From Vulcanimicrobiota bacterium (GTDB lineage: Bacteria > Vulcanimicrobiota > Xenobia > Xenobiales > QWHO01), in NCBI GenBank assembly GCA_963169765.1, contig CAUJEN010000043.1, positions 20,164-84,163 of the forward strand: a stretch of DNA of 64,000 bases. Reading direction: 5' to 3'. Position numbers and translations under genes: made by a program. Below, in pieces: positions 13,460 to 17,908 of this stretch (position 1 is its first letter; each line of letters begins with the position of its first letter). The notes below the pieces were generated by a model, which saw only the letters and a list, made by a program, of their open reading frames with translations, searched no databases and was not told where the DNA came from.

Positions 13460-16045
13460 TCAAGCTCGTTCCACCTTATCCGGCATGATTCCTGCGTTCC
13501 GGGCGGATCCGAAGTTCTGTTCGACCCAGCGACGAGGGTCGGGCAGGCCGCGGTCGAGCTGCTCCTCGCGCGCTCGGGTCAGGATCTGCTTGAAGAGAGG
13601 CCCGGGCTGAAAACCCTGCTCGAGCAGATCGCGACCCCGCAGCACCGGGGGCAGGTGCTGCAGGTCGGCCATGTAGTGGCGGATGCGCGTGTGCAATGGC
13701 TCAGAGGCGTTGAAGGCCAGTAGCCAGAGCAGGGCCTCGCGGGGCAGGGGGGCGAGCAGCCGTTCCAGCTCGCTGTCCTTGAGATCGCGCGAGCTCAGGG
13801 AGCGCAGCACCCGGTTGGCTCGAAAACTCTCCTCCAGTCCGGGTAGCACTTGCAGGCGGAAGCGACGGCGCAGGGCCTCGGTCTCCGCGGGCTTGAGGCT
13901 GGACATCAGGGCCAGAAGGGCCAGCAGCCAGGGGGGATCGGAGCGACCGAACTCGTGCTCCACCGCCTGCACCCGCCGCATGGTGCGCTCCACCCTCGTG
14001 CTCAGGGCCAGCGAGGGGTGCAGGCGGGGCAAGATCCTCAGCTTGTGCAGTCGCTCGATGGCCGGCAGGGGGTCGCGCTCGGACAAAATGATCAAAAGCT
14101 CGTCGCGCAATCGCTCGGCCGAGACCATCTCCAGGGCGCCCTCGAGCAGGGCCTGCTTGAGCAGGTGCTCGGTGGTCGGGTCGAGCCGGAAGTCGAGCCG
14201 GGCTTCGAAGCGGATGGCTCTCAGAATGCGGGTGGGGTCGTCGAGAAAGGAGTGGTTGTGCAGCACCCGGATGCGCCCATCGGTCAGGTCGCGGCGAGCC
14301 CCGAAGTAGTCCACCAGCTGGCCGAAGTGCGTGCTGGATAGTCGCACCGCCATGGCGTTCACCGAAAAATCCCGCCGGGCCAGGTCTTGCTTGAGGGTAC
14401 TGCCCTGCACCACGGGCAGGGCGGCGGGACGGGTGTAGATCTCGGTGCGGGCGGTGGCCAGATCGATGCGCCGCCCGTCCGGCCAGACCACCGAGGCGGT
14501 GCGGAAGCGCTCGTGGGGCAGCACCCGGGCCGGCCCCAGCCGCTCGGCCACCTTGTCGGCCAGCTCGCGGGCCGGGCCTTCCACCACCAGGTCGATGTCC
14601 TGCTCGCATTCGCGACCGAGCAACAGGTCGCGCACCGCCCCGCCCACCAGGAAGACCTCGTGGCCCTCCTGCTGGGCCACCTCGCCGATGTGGCGCAGCA
14701 GCCCCTCCAGCGAGGCGGGCATGGTCACGGTGACGCTCTCCTGGGTTCGGGCGGCCTGGGCCGAGTGCAGCCAGCGCAGCACGTCGGTGCGGCTGACGAT
14801 GCCCACCAGCTCGCCCCGCTCGATGACCGGCACCCGCCCGATGTCGCGCTCCACCAGCAGGCGCTGGATCTCGTCCAGGCGCGCTTCGGGCTCGACCGAG
14901 ACGATCTCGGTGGACATGTAGGTCGTGACCGGCGCGTGGCCCAGGTTGTGAGCGATGGCTTTGTCCAGGTCGCTGCGGGCGATCCAGCCCACCAGCTTGC
15001 CCTCGCGAGCCAGCCCCGCGGCCGTGTGGCCAAGCTCGCGCAGGCCCCGGGCCGCCTCGGCCACGGTCAGGTGGTCGAGCTCGAGCATGTGCACCGGGCT
15101 GGTCATCAGCTCGCGGGCGGTGGGCTTGCCAGGCAGCACCTCACACAGGCGCTCGAGCAGCCGCTGTTCCAGCTCGCTCAAAGGCTCGACCGGGATCGAG
15201 GCCGAGGCGGCCGCCCCGTGCCCGCCGCCTCCCAGCTCGCCCAGCAGATGTCCGAGCTGGGCCGTCTCGCTGTTGGCCCGACCGACCACATAGATGGTGT
15301 CCTCCATGCGCACCAGGGTCAGCACCACCTCCACCCCCAGCATCTCCAGCAGGCGGGTGGTCAAGAGGGCCAGATCGCCCACGAACTCCTCGCGCTCGGC
15401 GCTGGCCAGAGCGACCGTGGTTCCCTCCAGGTTGTGCAGGTGGGCGTTCTCCATCAGCTCGCTCAGGAGCTGGCGCTGGGGCACGTTCAGGGTCTGGCCC
15501 ACGAAGACGTTGACCATGGCCAGCCGCGCCCCCCGCTCCATCAGCCAGGCGCCCATGGCCAGATCTTCGGCGGTGGTGCCGGCGTGGGTGAACGAGCCCG
15601 TTTCTTCATGCAGGGCCAGCAGGCACAGGGTAGCCTCCTCCACCGTCAGCTCCAGGTTCTTCTGGCGCAGCCTCTTGAGCAGCACGGTCACGGCCGCCCC
15701 CATCGGCTCGGTGACGTCCAGGTCGCCCTGCACCCCCTCCGGGGTGGGGGGATGGTGGTCGTAGACGTGAAGCGAGATCTGGGGCTCGCTGACGAGGTTT
15801 CGCAGGGGGCCGAGGCGAGCCGGGTTGCGGGTGTCCACCAGCACGATGCGCTCGGGGCGCTGGTCCTTGAGCTCGTGGGCGTAGCTGACCGAGAAGACCC
15901 CTCGGTGGAGGGCCAGAAAGCGCCTGAGCGAGGGCTCGGGCGGCCCGATCAGCACCAATCGCGCGCCAGGATAGAGCTTGCTGGCCACCACCATGGAGGC
16001 AAAGGCGTCGAAGTCGGCCCGCTCGTGGGCCAGGATCCACTGCAC
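13460..16045 (-). CDS. cca: Multidomain CCA-adding tRNA nucleotidyltransferase/poly(A) polymerase with N-terminal DHH-DHHA1 and tandem CBS domains
   Basis: N-terminus 'ILAHERADFDAFAS' (DHH motif I), 'VYDHHPP' (DHH motif III) and 'GGGGHGAAAS' (DHHA1). Two CBS segments (~'LMTSPVHML...', '...IGRVPVIERGELVGIVSRTDVL'). C-terminus 'FLVGGAVRDLLLGRECEQDIDLVVEG...RDFSVNAMAV' is the pol-beta head domain. GTG start at 16045 inferred from DHH motif position. Confidence 0.8.
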   Translation of the reverse strand: MQWILAHERADFDAFASMVVASKLYPGARLVLIGPPEPSLRRFLALHRGVFSVSYAHELKDQRPERIVLVDTRNPARLGPLRNLVSEPQISLHVYDHHPPTPEGVQGDLDVTEPMGAAVTVLLKRLRQKNLELTVEEATLCLLALHEETGSFTHAGTTAEDLAMGAWLMERGARLAMVNVFVGQTLNVPQRQLLSELMENAHLHNLEGTTVALASAEREEFVGDLALLTTRLLEMLGVEVVLTLVRMEDTIYVVGRANSETAQLGHLLGELGGGGHGAAASASIPVEPLSELEQRLLERLCEVLPGKPTARELMTSPVHMLELDHLTVAEAARGLRELGHTAAGLAREGKLVGWIARSDLDKAIAHNLGHAPVTTYMSTEIVSVEPEARLDEIQRLLVERDIGRVPVIERGELVGIVSRTDVLRWLHSAQAARTQESVTVTMPASLEGLLRHIGEVAQQEGHEVFLVGGAVRDLLLGRECEQDIDLVVEGPARELADKVAERLGPARVLPHERFRTASVVWPDGRRIDLATARTEIYTRPAALPVVQGSTLKQDLARRDFSVNAMAVRLSSTHFGQLVDYFGARRDLTDGRIRVLHNHSFLDDPTRILRAIRFEARLDFRLDPTTEHLLKQALLEGALEMVSAERLRDELLIILSERDPLPAIERLHKLRILPRLHPSLALSTRVERTMRRVQAVEHEFGRSDPPWLLALLALMSSLKPAETEALRRRFRLQVLPGLEESFRANRVLRSLSSRDLKDSELERLLAPLPREALLWLLAFNASEPLHTRIRHYMADLQHLPPVLRGRDLLEQGFQPGPLFKQILTRAREEQLDRGLPDPRRWVEQNFGSARNAGIMPDKVERA

Positions 16046-16093
16046 CGGGAGGCCTTCTACAGCGCCCTGCAGGAGCCTGTGGCGAAGGCCTGA
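16014..16093. repeat. Left copy of ~75-80 bp imperfect direct repeat (contains cca start codon + leader)
   Basis: 'tcggcccgctcgtgggccaggatccactgcaccgggaggccttctacagcgccctgcaggagcctgtggcg...ggcctgaa' recurs at 17829-17908 with 3-4 mismatches. Confidence 0.8.
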
Positions 16094-16119
16094 ATCTCCA
16101 TCACTACCTGCCGGTGAGC

Positions 16120-16360
16120 ACGCGCCACCCGGCCCGGCTGTGCGTTTCGCACGTCGAGCTGCCCGCCGCCCTGCACCTGCCGGGCCCCGAGGGCTACCGG
16201 CGCTTCGAGCTCGAGACGAACTGGCCCATCGGCTCAGCCGGTATCTGGCCCTGCCCGACCCCACCTGGCGCTGGAGCGGGAGGCGCTTTTCGTCTCCCGC
16301 AACGGCCACCGGCTCACCTACGCCGGCATCGAGACCATCTGCAACGAGCTGGGGGTCTAG
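16120..16360 (+). pseudogene. Tyrosine-recombinase (integrase) C-terminal remnant, frameshifted/truncated
   Basis: Two frames carry integrase-like peptides ('...GPEGYRRFEL...' and 'LEREALFVSRNGHRLTYAGIETICNELGV*'). No intact ORF; catalytic region missing. Weak call. Confidence 0.3.
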
Positions 16361-16453
16361 GTCCGGACCCCGCGCCGCTCTCACGAGGCCCACATGAGCG
16401 AGCTGAGAAGCCGCTGCGCCCCTCTTTCCTAATCGAAATGAGGTGACAATGCG

Positions 16454-17087: not shown

Positions 17088-17466
17088 GCCAGGGTCCAGA
17101 CGAGTCAAGCTGGAACTCTATCGGTGTGACGGCTTTCCCCAAAACCCCTGTACAGGGCGAGACCTTTACCCCCCCGAAGCTCACCTGCAAGTGGAATGTC
17201 AATAGATCCCAGGGGGTCCCCACAATGCTCGTTGGTCTCGTCATCGGTGGCGCAGGCGGATATCTCGCACCCGGTCCGATTCTTAAAGGGCTCTCTATTG
17301 TCGGCGGAGGAACGATTTCTAGCCGGTTTCAGTGTCTCGCGCCGAACTCTTCGCGTGGAATTTGAACCGGTAAAGCCTGGTCAACGCGTCCGTTTGATCT
17401 GACCGGAAGAATCGCAGGAAGGAGATGAAATAATTAAGATATTTCAAGAAACAGTGTGATGTTGGT

Positions 17467-17691
17467 TTGGGCGTCGGATATTGCTACAACGAGTTTACTG
17501 ACGGCTGGGCCACTCGCCAAGTCGAGAACTATGGCACTAGATGGTATTCTTCGTTCAACTCTGAGTATCACGAAGAGCTTGGCCCAGCCCTGTGCGACCA
17601 GCCATTGGACTCTCTTGAATTTGCCCCTGAGGATGAAATTTCACGCAAGGAATTCGAGTCCGTTTGGGCAAAGGTCATTGCCCCACAGTAG
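17467..17691 (+). CDS. Orphan small protein encoded in low-GC segment
   Basis: 74-aa ORF in a ~50% GC stretch. Acidic, W/Y/F-rich ('GYCYNEFTDGWATRQVENYGTRWYSSF'). Preceded by RBS-like 'aggaaggag'. No family recognised. Confidence 0.3.
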   Translation: MGVGYCYNEFTDGWATRQVENYGTRWYSSFNSEYHEELGPALCDQPLDSLEFAPEDEISRKEFESVWAKVIAPQ

Positions 17692-17828
17692 TCCCTCCTA
17701 GCGCCGTCCGCTCGCTTCAGATCGGCACAACATGCGTATTCCACGCTTAGCCGGCCTCCGGCCGTGAGGACGCGCCGAACGAAAGCGAAAGACCCATGCA
17801 TGCCTCGACGACCTCGCGCGTCCAGAAA

Positions 17829-17908
17829 TCGGCCCGCTCATGGGCCAGGATCCACTGCACCGGGAGGCCTTCTACAGCGCCCTGCAGGAGCCTGTGGCGG
17901 GGGCCTGA
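17829..17908. repeat. Right copy of ~75-80 bp direct repeat, immediately upstream of ppx
   Basis: Near-identical to 16014-16093; ends 14-21 nt before the ppx ATG (17922). Creates the spurious chimeric minus-strand ORF 17747..18055 that starts with the duplicated cca N-terminus. Confidence 0.8.

What the first reader, a model, noticed from the sequence alone, without database searches (positions are those of the whole stretch)
16014..17908. Decayed integrative island bounded by ~75-80 bp direct repeats that duplicate the start codon and leader of the cca/DHH gene
The stretch 'tcggcccgctc[g/a]tgggccaggatccactgcaccgggaggccttctacagcgccctgcaggagcctgtggcg..ggcctgaa' occurs at 16014-16093 and again at 17829-17908, with 3-4 mismatches. 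Copy 1 contains the GTG start and first ~10 codons of the DHH-CBS-CCA gene (minus strand). Copy 2 sits 14 nt upstream of the ppx ATG. Between the copies lie integrase-like peptide remnants in two frames, a DUF433/DUF5615 TA-like pair and a ~50% GC segment. Removing the insert leaves cca and ppx as divergent neighbours with a ~60 bp shared control region. The island therefore split a bidirectional promoter, and each gene now keeps one repeat copy as its leader. Repeat divergence and integrase decay suggest an old, domesticated insertion.
Basis: seen in the sequence. Interest (0 to 1): 0.75.

Follow-up and report, generated by a model that had tools for sequence, protein, structure and literature searches.

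The report
Small decayed island inserted at cca start
A 1.8-kb piece of foreign DNA carrying a toxin-antitoxin pair sits between two near-identical 90-bp repeats at the start of a tRNA-maturation gene in an uncultured bacterium. It is an ordinary leftover of a larger mobile element, but it is present in some cells and missing in others of the same strain, so it is not an old fixed insertion.

Summary
Segments 16010-16099 and 17825-17914 are 84/90 identical, share an exact 59-nt core, and occur nowhere else. Copy 1 holds the GTG start (16045), 12 codons and 54 nt of leader of the DHH-CBS-CCA gene. Copy 2 lies just upstream of ppx.

Four related genomes have one copy of the segment, with cca and ppx divergent and 57-61 nt apart. 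One contig of the same strain (1 mismatch in 4,390 nt) equals the window minus exactly 16085-17899, which is 1,815 nt. So this is an insertion that is still polymorphic.

All six repeat mismatches lie outside the core. Four of them match alleles of the same site in relatives. They therefore arrived with the element and did not build up with age.

The island carries an intact DUF433/PIN-like (DUF5615) pair, a small DUF6881-like gene with a stop at codon 3, and a low-GC end. Its "integrase remnant" gets no Pfam hit. It is collinear with a family of catalytically dead XerD-like proteins that precede the closest DUF433/PIN homologues. That family also sits in operons with 2-3 tyrosine recombinases and a primase.

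Verdict: a decayed, att-flanked remnant of a multi-recombinase integrative element. It is a known kind of thing and of modest interest.

The parts
13460..16045 (-). DHH-DHHA1-CBS-PolyA_pol (CCA-adding-type) gene, 861 aa, GTG start at 16045-16043. Its first 12 codons lie inside repeat copy 1.
   Evidence: Pfam domains. Gene call of 861 aa on the identical public contig. The start aligns with the ATG of the L003 orthologue.
16005..16099 (.). Repeat copy 1, attL-like. The left arm is of host type (G at 16013 and 16025). Then comes the 59-nt exact core 16026-16084. The right arm is of element type (AA at 16085-86, TC at 16095-96).
   Evidence: Arm assignment comes from the empty allele L172 and the permuted contig L086.
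16085..17899 (.). The 1,815-nt unit that is exactly absent from the same-strain empty-site contig L172. It equals one island plus one repeat length.
   Evidence: L172 equals the window minus this segment, with 1 other mismatch in 4,390 nt. L086 is 100% identical to 1,794 nt of this unit closed on itself.
16090..16427 (+). Decayed 3' half of a XerD-like gene. It is spread over three frames with an internal stop. It corresponds to about residues 145-261 of a roughly 260-aa, catalytically dead family. The 5' half is missing, and the remnant abuts the repeat.
   Evidence: No Pfam, PHROG or BLAST hit. A XerD-type HMM ranks it as the top non-integrase among 44k ORFs, p about 1e-4. Collinear tblastn matches to the L180 and L190 proteins, sum E 1e-4 to 6e-4 in 471 nt. 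A family profile gives 20.5 bits, E 5.8e-4 against 44k ORFs for the hand-joined peptide, and 10.9 bits for the single-frame ORF. It is syntenic with the TA pair in L180, L190 and L177.
16443..16471 (+). Sigma-70-like promoter match (GTGACA-17-TACAAT) just upstream of the likely true DUF433 start at 16478.
   Evidence: It is the only promoter-like hit in 15900-18100. The 94-aa homologues P0003 and P0005 fit a start at the second Met. This is a consensus match only.
16454..16762 (+). DUF433 (COG2442) protein, the antitoxin-type partner. The longest ORF is 102 aa. The start is probably at 16478, giving 94 aa.
   Evidence: Pfam PF04255, 53.8 bits, full profile. The identical protein is on 24 public contigs. 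Homologues are 71-85% identical.
16755..17087 (+). DUF5615 / PIN_10 (PIN-like, Mut7-C-like) protein, the toxin-type partner, 110 aa. It overlaps the DUF433 stop by 8 nt.
   Evidence: Pfam PF18480 62 bits and PF18478 38 bits. The same pair occurs in L180 and L190.
17425..17691 (+). Small DUF6881-like gene with an in-frame TAA at codon 3 (17431-17433), so probably a pseudogene. It lies in the low-GC part of the island.
   Evidence: 77 relatives at E<=1e-3, best 55% identical. The alignment shows homologues start M-K/R-RYFK where the window reads M-K-stop-L-R-Y-F-K. DUF6881 hits are sub-threshold.
17599..17767 (.). A 169-nt stretch absent from an otherwise identical public assembly (QWHO01000038.1). 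It shows ongoing decay of the island's right end.
17818..17914 (.). Repeat copy 2, attR-like. The left arm is of element type (A at 17828 and 17840). Then comes the exact core 17841-17899. The right arm is of host type. It carries a second GTG plus 12 cca codons that run into a 37-codon dead-end ORF.
17922..19409 (+). Ppx/GppA exopolyphosphatase gene, 495 aa, the native divergent neighbour of cca.
   Evidence: Pfam. It is adjacent to cca in L001, L002, L003, L091 and L172.

Best explanation
The 1.73-kb segment is the decayed right-hand part of a site-specific integrative element. The parent type has several tyrosine recombinases in a row plus a primase.

The element integrated into the 5' end of the cca-type gene. 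It did so by recombination between a chromosomal site and an element-borne, about 95-nt near-copy of that site. Because the element's copy includes the GTG, 12 codons and the leader, integration rebuilt an intact cca 5' end (attL, 16005-16099). It left a second copy next to ppx (attR, 17818-17914).

A later deletion removed everything from the element arm of attL to the middle of the last, already inactive, recombinase-like gene. What remains is that gene's 3' half, an intact DUF433/PIN-like toxin-antitoxin pair, a small pseudogene and a low-GC end.

The remnant has no recombinase of its own. It is still gained or lost as a precise 1,815-nt unit by crossover within the 59-nt identical core. 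The agent could be a related recombinase acting in trans or the host's homologous recombination. The TA pair probably slows its loss.

Shown: the insertion, the duplication, the empty sites, the within-strain polymorphism and the gene content. Inferred: the parent element type, the deletion and the enzyme.
For: 1. Repeat and exact core.
2. A single-copy 'empty' site with cca and ppx 61 nt apart in three relatives at 92-95% nt identity, and 57 nt apart in one at about 75%.
3. Same-strain empty allele. L172 equals the window minus 16085-17899, and its single copy is copy-1-left plus core plus copy-2-right. The sister run carries the filled allele (L176).
4. The reciprocal junction (copy-2-left plus core plus copy-1-right) occurs on L086, a 1,794-nt contig 100% identical to the circularised unit.
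5. The filled allele is identical in 4 NCBI assemblies and several Logan runs, so it is not an assembly artefact.
6. All six mismatches lie outside the core (p = 0.0017), and 4 of the 6 element-arm variants match native alleles in L001, L002 or L091.
7. The GC drop and the foreign gene content.
8. The remnant at 16090-16427 is collinear with a XerD-like family that directly precedes the nearest DUF433/DUF5615 homologues in L180 (85% aa) and L190. In L179 the same position holds a frameshifted integrase with a Pfam Phage_integrase hit of 27.9 bits.
9. Intact family members lie in operons of 2-3 tyrosine recombinases behind an 863-870-aa primase.
10. The layout (recombinase operon, then cargo, then an AT-rich end, inserted in the 5' end of a gene and flanked by imperfect direct repeats) matches that described for GInts (PMC5385486).
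Against: - No intact recombinase is in the island or elsewhere in the 64-kb window.
- The remnant has no hit in Pfam, PHROGs, plasmid tblastn or the 5.8-billion-protein word search. Its best score rests on a peptide I joined by hand across frames.
- No full-length element of this family was found at the cca site, and none of the intact elements fetched carries the cca-like segment.
- The flanking repeats (about 95 nt) are far longer than the 10-11 nt reported for GInts.
- The neighbouring recombinases resemble generic XerC/XerD most closely.
- A crossover in a 59-nt identical core fits RecA as well as it fits a site-specific enzyme.
- L086 could be a k=31 de Bruijn mis-traversal of the shared core in a low-coverage sample. 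Other Logan contigs break exactly at the core's k-mer boundaries.
Confidence: 0.7

Rival explanations
1. Homologous recombination only. A circular or linear DNA from a related lineage already carried the island plus that lineage's allele of the cca-ppx spacer. It entered by RecA-dependent recombination, either a Campbell-type single crossover in the about 95-nt homology or allelic replacement through the long flanks. No site-specific recombinase acted at this site in this lineage. Loss is by RecA or by replication slippage between the repeats.
For: Four of the six element-arm variants are native alleles of the same site in relatives. There is a 59-nt exact core flanked by fading homology. The island has no functional recombinase. 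The recombinase-like gene it descends from lacks the catalytic residues. The precise 1,815-nt deletion allele is what repeat-mediated recombination gives.
Against: It only moves the origin of the duplication to the donor lineage, because something first had to place a copy of the cca 5' end next to foreign DNA. The island's gene order matches the cargo end of recombinase-driven elements. A 59-nt identity is a poor RecA substrate.
Confidence: 0.2
2. One reading: an old, domesticated insertion. The two repeats were once identical and have since drifted apart, and the integrase decayed in place.
For: The repeats differ at 6 of 90 positions. The recombinase-like sequence is broken into three frames. 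A small cargo gene has a premature stop. One assembly lacks 169 nt of the island.
Against: The empty allele exists in the same strain, 1 mismatch in 4,390 nt. Relatives at 92-95% identity all lack the island. The mismatches avoid the central 59 nt (p = 0.0017) and mostly match alleles in related lineages. The truncated, catalytically dead form of the recombinase-like gene is shared with loci elsewhere, so it predates this insertion.
Confidence: 0.06
3. The segment is ancestral, and the 'empty' sites are independent deletions between the repeats in the other lineages.
For: Direct repeats promote precise deletion, and L172 may well be such a deletion.
Against: It needs at least four independent precise losses, including in the outgroup L003. 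The segment has deviant GC and mobile-element-type content. The outgroup site shows no trace of a second copy.
Confidence: 0.03
4. The structure is an assembly artefact, a transposon target-site duplication, or a dispersed repeat.
For: Metagenome assemblies can mis-join at repeats.
Against: The identical structure appears in 4 independent NCBI assemblies and in many Logan runs. There are no transposase or terminal inverted repeats, and 95 nt is far beyond known target duplications. There are only two copies in the window, none in 2 Mb of other loci except the orthologous site, and none in IMG/VR.
Confidence: 0.01

Closest known systems
CIMEs (cis-mobilizable elements): decayed integrative elements that kept attL and attR but lost their integration and transfer genes (definition in PMC5704250)
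   Same: The island is flanked by attL- and attR-like direct repeats at a specific gene end. It has no functional recombinase. Empty sites exist in relatives. It is present or absent as a precise unit.
   Different: CIMEs are defined as remnants of ICEs or IMEs in Firmicutes, usually at the 3' end of a gene and with short att identity. Here there is no trace of conjugation or mobilisation genes. The target is the 5' end of a protein gene, and the repeat is about 95 nt. Mobilisation by an incoming element has not been shown.
GInts (genomic islands with three integrases; Bardaji et al. 2017, PMC5385486) and, more loosely, recombinase-in-trio (RIT) elements
   Same: Relatives of the island's recombinase-like remnant lie last in a row of overlapping tyrosine-recombinase genes. 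Cargo starts right after that row. The end of the island is AT-richer. Insertion is in the 5' end of a conserved gene with imperfect flanking direct repeats. In GInts the third recombinase also lacks a catalytic arginine, and excision yields circles and restored attB sites.
   Different: GInt repeats are 10-11 nt, not about 95 nt. GInts have ginD and no primase. Here the third protein lacks nearly all catalytic residues, including the tyrosine. The neighbouring recombinases are closest to generic XerC/XerD. No sequence comparison with GinABC or RitABC was possible.
Prophages and islands that carry a replacement copy of the gene end they integrate into (for example e14 and phage 21 in the 3' end of E. 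coli icd; from my own knowledge, not checked here)
   Same: The element-borne att region is a diverged copy of the target gene's end. The gene stays intact after integration, and the two copies differ by mostly synonymous changes. Here GAC to GAT and CAC to CAT in cca codons 11 and 8 are both silent.
   Different: Those cases replace a 3' end. Here the start codon, 12 codons and the leader are replaced, so the gene's upstream control region beyond -54 is now island DNA.
PIN-COG2442 (DUF433) VapBC-type toxin-antitoxin systems, e.g. VapBC10 of Synechocystis (PMC3834315; predicted in PMC2701414)
   Same: A DUF433 protein is followed by a PIN-like protein, the reading frames overlap, and the pair sits on mobile DNA.
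   Different: The toxin here matches the DUF5615/PIN_10/Mut7-C branch rather than a classical VapC. No activity has been tested.

Membership tests
Integrative-element remnant with retained att sites (CIME-like) | Flanked by direct repeats (attL/attR) that duplicate the target site | tested here: met
   90-95 nt, 93% identical, 59-nt exact core, only two copies.
Integrative-element remnant with retained att sites (CIME-like) | Empty target site with a single att copy in related genomes | tested here: met
   L001, L002, L091, L003 and the same-strain contig L172.
Integrative-element remnant with retained att sites (CIME-like) | No functional integrase or transfer genes inside the element | tested here: met
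   Only a frameshifted 3' half of a recombinase-like gene is present. No Pfam Phage_integrase hit and no XerD-like hit elsewhere in the window.
Integrative-element remnant with retained att sites (CIME-like) | Descent from an ICE or IME (relics of conjugation or mobilisation modules) | tested here: not met
   No relaxase, T4SS or oriT-type content. The relatives carry a primase plus several recombinases instead.
Integrative-element remnant with retained att sites (CIME-like) | Excision or mobilisation when a cognate recombinase is supplied | not testable with these tools
   Only indirect evidence: the attB-type contig L172 and the attP-type permuted contig L086. L086 may be a graph artefact.
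Tyrosine recombinase (Pfam PF00589) | Significant match to the catalytic-domain profile | tested here: not met
   No hit at E<=10 for any frame or for the joined peptide. Only 6-7.5 bits to a XerD-type HMM. 20.5 bits to the dead-XerD family profile.
Tyrosine recombinase (Pfam PF00589) | Catalytic R-K-H-R-H/W-Y residues | tested here: not met
   The parent family lacks Arg-I and the beta-hairpin Lys, has PRTLRRS in place of PHxLRH, and has a 33-column deletion that removes His/Trp-III and Tyr. The window copy is also truncated and frameshifted.
GInt / recombinase-in-trio type element | Three adjacent co-directional tyrosine-recombinase genes at one end of the element | tested here: not met
   Not present in the window. 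Present in related loci L187, L189 and L182-L186. The window keeps only half of the last gene.
GInt / recombinase-in-trio type element | Sequence relatedness to GinABC(D) or RitABC | not tested
   No reference sequences were to hand. The nearest plasmid-borne relatives of the middle recombinase are annotated XerC/XerD, 33-37% identical.
GInt / recombinase-in-trio type element | Short (10-11 nt) imperfect flanking repeats (GInt) or long terminal inverted repeats (RIT) | tested here: not met
   The repeats are direct and about 95 nt. No terminal inverted repeats.
Type II toxin-antitoxin, PIN-COG2442 (DUF433) class | DUF433 protein adjacent to a PIN-like protein in one operon | tested here: met
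   PF04255 at 53.8 bits and PF18480/PF18478 at 62/38 bits. There is an 8-nt overlap, same strand. The pairing is conserved in L180 and L190.
Type II toxin-antitoxin, PIN-COG2442 (DUF433) class | Toxicity of the PIN protein, neutralised by the DUF433 protein | not testable with these tools
   Shown for VapBC10 of Synechocystis only (PMC3834315).
Transposon / insertion sequence | Transposase, terminal inverted repeats, short target duplication | tested here: not met
   None found.
Dispersed repeat element | Many copies at unrelated loci | tested here: not met
   Two copies in the window. Otherwise only at the orthologous locus. None in IMG/VR.

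The most novel reading that the evidence does not exclude
The 1,815-nt unit is still an active, non-autonomous mobile element. It would be a TA-carrying mini-circle that excises and re-integrates at the cca start through its 59-nt core, driven in trans by intact primase plus multi-recombinase elements present in the same reactor communities. 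It would reach copy numbers above the chromosome in some samples (contig L086). The catalytically dead XerD-like protein would be a conserved att-binding or specificity subunit of a so far undescribed family of multi-recombinase elements in Xenobia/Eremiobacterota-type bacteria.
Probability: 0.15. Interest if true: 0.55.

Novelty: new member of a known kind. Interest (0 to 1): 0.3.

Why it matters
The finding gives a clean natural example, in an uncultured phylum, of an element that targets the 5' end of a housekeeping gene and brings its own copy of the start codon and leader. The gene survives, but its upstream control region is swapped.

It also shows that divergence between flanking repeats can be imported with the element and need not measure age.

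The side finding may be of more general interest. A conserved family of catalytically dead XerD-like proteins sits inside recombinase operons next to a primase. These could be non-catalytic subunits of multi-recombinase integration machines.

Beyond that, the island itself is an ordinary strain-variable islet.

Tried and rejected
- **Standard searches on the integrase remnant.** Pfam on three frames and on a hand-joined peptide, PHROGs, tblastn against 72k plasmids, and the 5.8-billion-protein word search all gave nothing. The standard test for 'integrase' fails. Only a family-specific profile and synteny support it.
- **An SD-sequestering hairpin in the cca leader, created by the element arm** (8-bp perfect inverted repeat 16050-57/16084-91). 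Rejected. Folding energies of the filled and empty leaders are no better than shuffles, z between -0.4 and +0.2.
- **Looking for the cca-like segment or island DNA in the intact multi-recombinase elements L182-L190.** None found. The actual parent element remains unseen.
- **Direct repeats around the related modules in L177, L179 and L180.** None found.
- **IMG/VR scans for the core and for the dead-XerD family.** Nothing found.
- **Exact-protein look-up of the 74-aa ORF.** Not on record.
- **Rfam and tRNA scans.** Nothing found, so this is not a tRNA- or tmRNA-type att site.
- **Relating the recombinases to plasmid-borne trio elements.** The best hits are generic XerC/XerD.
- **Treating L086 as proof of a circle.** Not accepted. 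Logan contigs break exactly at the k=31 boundaries of the shared core (L085 = 16055-17870; L174 and L175 start at 17841). L086 also has a 21-nt gap typical of low coverage.

Full report
**1. The observation**

The window holds a direct repeat at 16010-16099 and 17825-17914. It is 90 nt long and 84/90 identical, with a start-to-start spacing of 1,815 nt. With a 2-nt indel the homology reaches 16005/17818.

The six mismatches are at 16013, 16025, 16085, 16086, 16095 and 16096. The central 59 nt (16026-16084 = 17841-17899) are therefore identical. A 57-nt core pattern allowing 3 mismatches finds only these two sites in 64 kb, against none in 100 shuffles.

The minus-strand gene 13460-16045 has DHH, DHHA1, CBS and PolyA_pol domains. 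Its GTG at 16045-16043 aligns with the ATG of a 72%-identical orthologue, and it is the start used on the identical public contig (861 aa). Copy 1 therefore contains the start codon, 12 codons and 54 nt of leader. Copy 2 ends 7-13 nt before the ppx ATG at 17922 (Ppx-GppA).

Between the copies lie three things. The first is DUF433 (16454-16762). The second is DUF5615/PIN_10 (16755-17087), which overlaps DUF433 by 8 nt. The third is a stretch where GC falls from about 0.70 to 0.48.

**2. It is an insertion, and the site is polymorphic**

The source organism is an uncultured Xenobia/Vulcanimicrobiota-type bacterium (record titles; one source names it 'bacterium CPR1').

Three related genomes at 92-95% nucleotide identity (L001, L002, L091) align to the window on both sides. 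They have a single copy of the segment, with cca and ppx divergent and 61 nt apart. A more distant relative (L003, about 75% nt identity) has the same adjacency, with a 57-nt spacer.

The filled structure is 100% identical in four NCBI assemblies and in many Logan run assemblies, so it is not an assembly artefact.

A 4,390-nt contig from run SRR34420818 (L172) encodes the identical 861-aa protein. It equals the window with exactly 16085-17899 removed, and shows one other mismatch. The sister run SRR34420819 carries the filled allele (L176). Presence or absence therefore varies within what is effectively one strain.

**3. What the repeat mismatches mean**

The single copy in L172 is the left arm of copy 1 plus the core plus the right arm of copy 2. 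So those two arms are host sequence. The right arm of copy 1 and the left arm of copy 2 came with the island.

All six differences lie outside the 59-nt core. For random decay the chance of that is (31/90)^6 = 0.0017.

Four of the six island-side variants are the alleles found at the same position of the native site in L001, L002 or L091. The two that fall in cca codons are silent.

The island-borne copy is therefore an allele of this same locus from a related lineage. The crossover fell in the identical core. The 7% divergence does not measure time since insertion.

**4. A possible circular form**

Contig L086 (SRR16693997, 1,794 nt) is 100% identical to the 1,815-nt unit closed on itself through the reciprocal hybrid repeat, which is copy-2-left plus core plus copy-1-right. 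Together with L172, both products of recombination between the repeats exist in public assemblies.

I do not treat L086 as proof of a circle. Logan contigs come from a k=31 graph in which the 59-nt core is shared. Other contigs break exactly at its k-mer boundaries: L085 is 16055-17870, and L174 and L175 start at 17841. L086 also has a 21-nt gap that suggests low coverage.

L172 is stronger evidence, because 4.4 kb of continuous contig implies adequate coverage.

**5. The 'integrase remnant'**

Standard tests fail. There was no Pfam hit at E<=10 for any frame or for a joined peptide. PHROGs gave nothing. There was no integrase among plasmid tblastn hits, and no candidate in the 5.8-billion-protein search.

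A XerD-type HMM built from seven real recombinases in the fetched loci ranks the ORF 16118-16357 first among about 44,000 background ORFs. The score is only 6-7.5 bits (p about 1e-4), at the expected profile position.

The decisive lead came from the TA genes.
- The closest DUF433 homologues (85%, 73% and 71% identical) lie directly downstream of recombinase-like sequence.
- In L179 this is a frameshifted integrase with a Pfam Phage_integrase hit above threshold, 27.9 bits.
- In L180 and L190 it is an intact ORF followed by DUF433 and DUF5615.
- The L180 ORF is 34% identical to the L179 integrase (E 3e-17). It gives collinear matches to window 16090-16158, 16215-16296 and 16253-16427 in three frames (L190 protein likewise).
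- A profile of its family scores my joined window peptide at 20.5 bits (E 5.8e-4 against 44k ORFs). It scores the single-frame ORF at 10.9 bits, the best non-XerD hit.

I conclude with moderate confidence that 16090-16427 is the decayed 3' half of such a gene. The homology starts right at the repeat border, so the 5' half has been deleted.

**6. The parent gene family and element type**

The family (P0087-P0096) has proteins of 248-268 aa that are 48-75% identical to one another. They keep the N-terminal core-binding domain. Compared with XerD-type relatives they differ in four ways:
- they lack Arg-I;
- they lack the beta-hairpin lysine segment;
- they have PRTLRRS where active relatives have PHxLRH;
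- they have a 33-column deletion that removes the last histidine or tryptophan and the tyrosine nucleophile.

They are conserved as open reading frames, so they are probably functional non-catalytic proteins.

Where longer contigs exist, these genes lie in operons. One arrangement is primase (863-870 aa), recombinase (306-312 aa), recombinase (297-299 aa), then the dead protein. This is complete in L187; in L189 a cut 685-aa gene without Pfam data takes the primase position. The other arrangement has the dead protein second of four recombinase-like genes, followed by a PIN-like gene (L182-L186). These loci come from the same reactor study and from other runs.

The window island therefore looks like the cargo end of a multi-recombinase element. 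It has half of the last recombinase-like gene, then cargo, then a lower-GC end.

This layout matches the published description of GInts: the ginABCD operon, then cargo, then an AT-rich 3' end. GInts insert in the 5' end of a gene, have imperfect flanking repeats, show circular intermediates and restored attB, and their third recombinase lacks a catalytic arginine (PMC5385486).

I do not file the island as a GInt, for these reasons:
- its repeats are about 95 nt, not 10-11 nt;
- a primase is present in the relatives;
- the neighbouring recombinases resemble generic XerC/XerD;
- no sequence comparison with Gin or Rit proteins was possible.

**7. Cargo**

DUF433 plus a PIN-like protein is the PIN-COG2442 class of predicted VapBC-type toxin-antitoxin systems. 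One member has been validated in Synechocystis (PMC3834315; PMC2701414). Both genes here cover their Pfam profiles fully.

The only sigma-70-like match in the region (16443-16471) overlaps the first ATG. The 94-aa length of homologues P0003 and P0005 also fits a start at the second methionine. The true start is thus probably 16478.

The ORF 17467-17691 belongs to a real small-protein family (77 relatives, best 55% identical; sub-threshold DUF6881). The window copy has a TAA at codon 3. One assembly lacks 17599-17767.

The island is therefore decaying, except for the TA pair. That fits the pair acting as an addiction module.

**8. Mechanism and rivals**

Best explanation (0.7): an att-flanked remnant of an integrative element. 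It rebuilt the cca 5' end on integration, lost its recombinase end by deletion, and is now gained or lost as a 1,815-nt unit by crossover in the 59-nt core.

Which enzyme does this is open. A purely RecA-driven history, by Campbell-type integration or allelic exchange from a related lineage, is the main rival (0.2). It is not excluded by any result here. The old-insertion, ancestral-segment and artefact readings are poorly supported (section 2 and section 3).

What is shown is that cca keeps 54 nt of its native-type leader, of which the last 15 nt are element-type, and then faces island DNA. ppx keeps all 61 nt plus the duplicated cca codons.

**9. Verdict**

It is wrong on age, and imprecise on the 'integrase'.

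This is a new member of a known kind, of modest interest (0.3). The side observation of dead XerD-like proteins inside recombinase-primase operons may deserve its own look.

Noticed in passing
L180 3-617; L190 21-767; L187 4730-5515; L189 4176-4955; L182 5444-6235 (proteins P0087-P0096): A conserved family of XerD-like proteins, about 260 aa and 48-75% identical to one another. They lack Arg-I, the hairpin lysine, both histidines and the tyrosine (33-column C-terminal deletion). They always sit inside operons of 2-3 apparently normal tyrosine recombinases, which follow an 863-870-aa primase where upstream sequence is on record. They may be a non-catalytic subunit of a multi-recombinase mobile element.
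   Followed up: partly
L086 (Logan SRR16693997_211116), equivalent to window 16889..17899 joined to 16085..16867: This contig is a 100% identical circular permutation of the 1,815-nt unit, with the reciprocal (attP-type) hybrid repeat. It is either an excised circle or tandem copy, or a k=31 graph mis-traversal of the 59-nt shared core.
   Followed up: partly
window 19870-19877 (L001 2853-3995): Relatives L001, L002 and L091 carry an extra 1,141 nt (GC 0.61) here. It encodes a 319-aa TPR-repeat protein between the His_Phos_1 gene and the 100-aa gene. It is absent from the window strain and from L003, and has no flanking repeats. This is a second strain-variable indel 2 kb from the first.
   Followed up: partly
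window 17599-17767: Assembly QWHO01000038.1 (L082) is otherwise identical over the 4 kb compared but lacks these 169 nt. The gap removes the 3' end of the DUF6881-like pseudogene.
   Followed up: no
window 17261-17293: Several independent Logan contigs (L087 and three similar places, and L089) end here inside the low-GC part of the island. This hints at another structural variant or branch point in natural populations.
   Followed up: no
window 17425-17433: The DUF6881-like small gene reads ATG AAA TAA TTA AGA..., with a Shine-Dalgarno-like AGGAG just upstream. The stop sits at codon 3 in an otherwise well-conserved ORF, so the inactivation looks recent.
   Followed up: yes
window 16443-16478: The promoter-like GTGACA-17-TACAAT ends 7 nt before the second ATG of the DUF433 ORF, which fits the start implied by the 94-aa homologues. 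The TA operon may be transcribed as a leaderless mRNA.
   Followed up: no
L190 1709-3361; L179 1574-3400: In related loci the dead-XerD/DUF433/PIN module is followed by a YD-shell (RHS-type) protein or by a 609-aa protein without Pfam hits. This suggests polymorphic-toxin cargo. The DUF6881-like gene in the window could be an orphan immunity gene.
   Followed up: no
window 17858-17747 (minus strand): Copy 2 keeps the GTG and 12 cca codons. These run into a 37-codon dead-end ORF (VQWILAHERADFWTREVV...) that points into the island, antisense to its cargo. If the native cca promoter lies in the duplicated leader, it would now also drive antisense transcription of the island.
   Followed up: no
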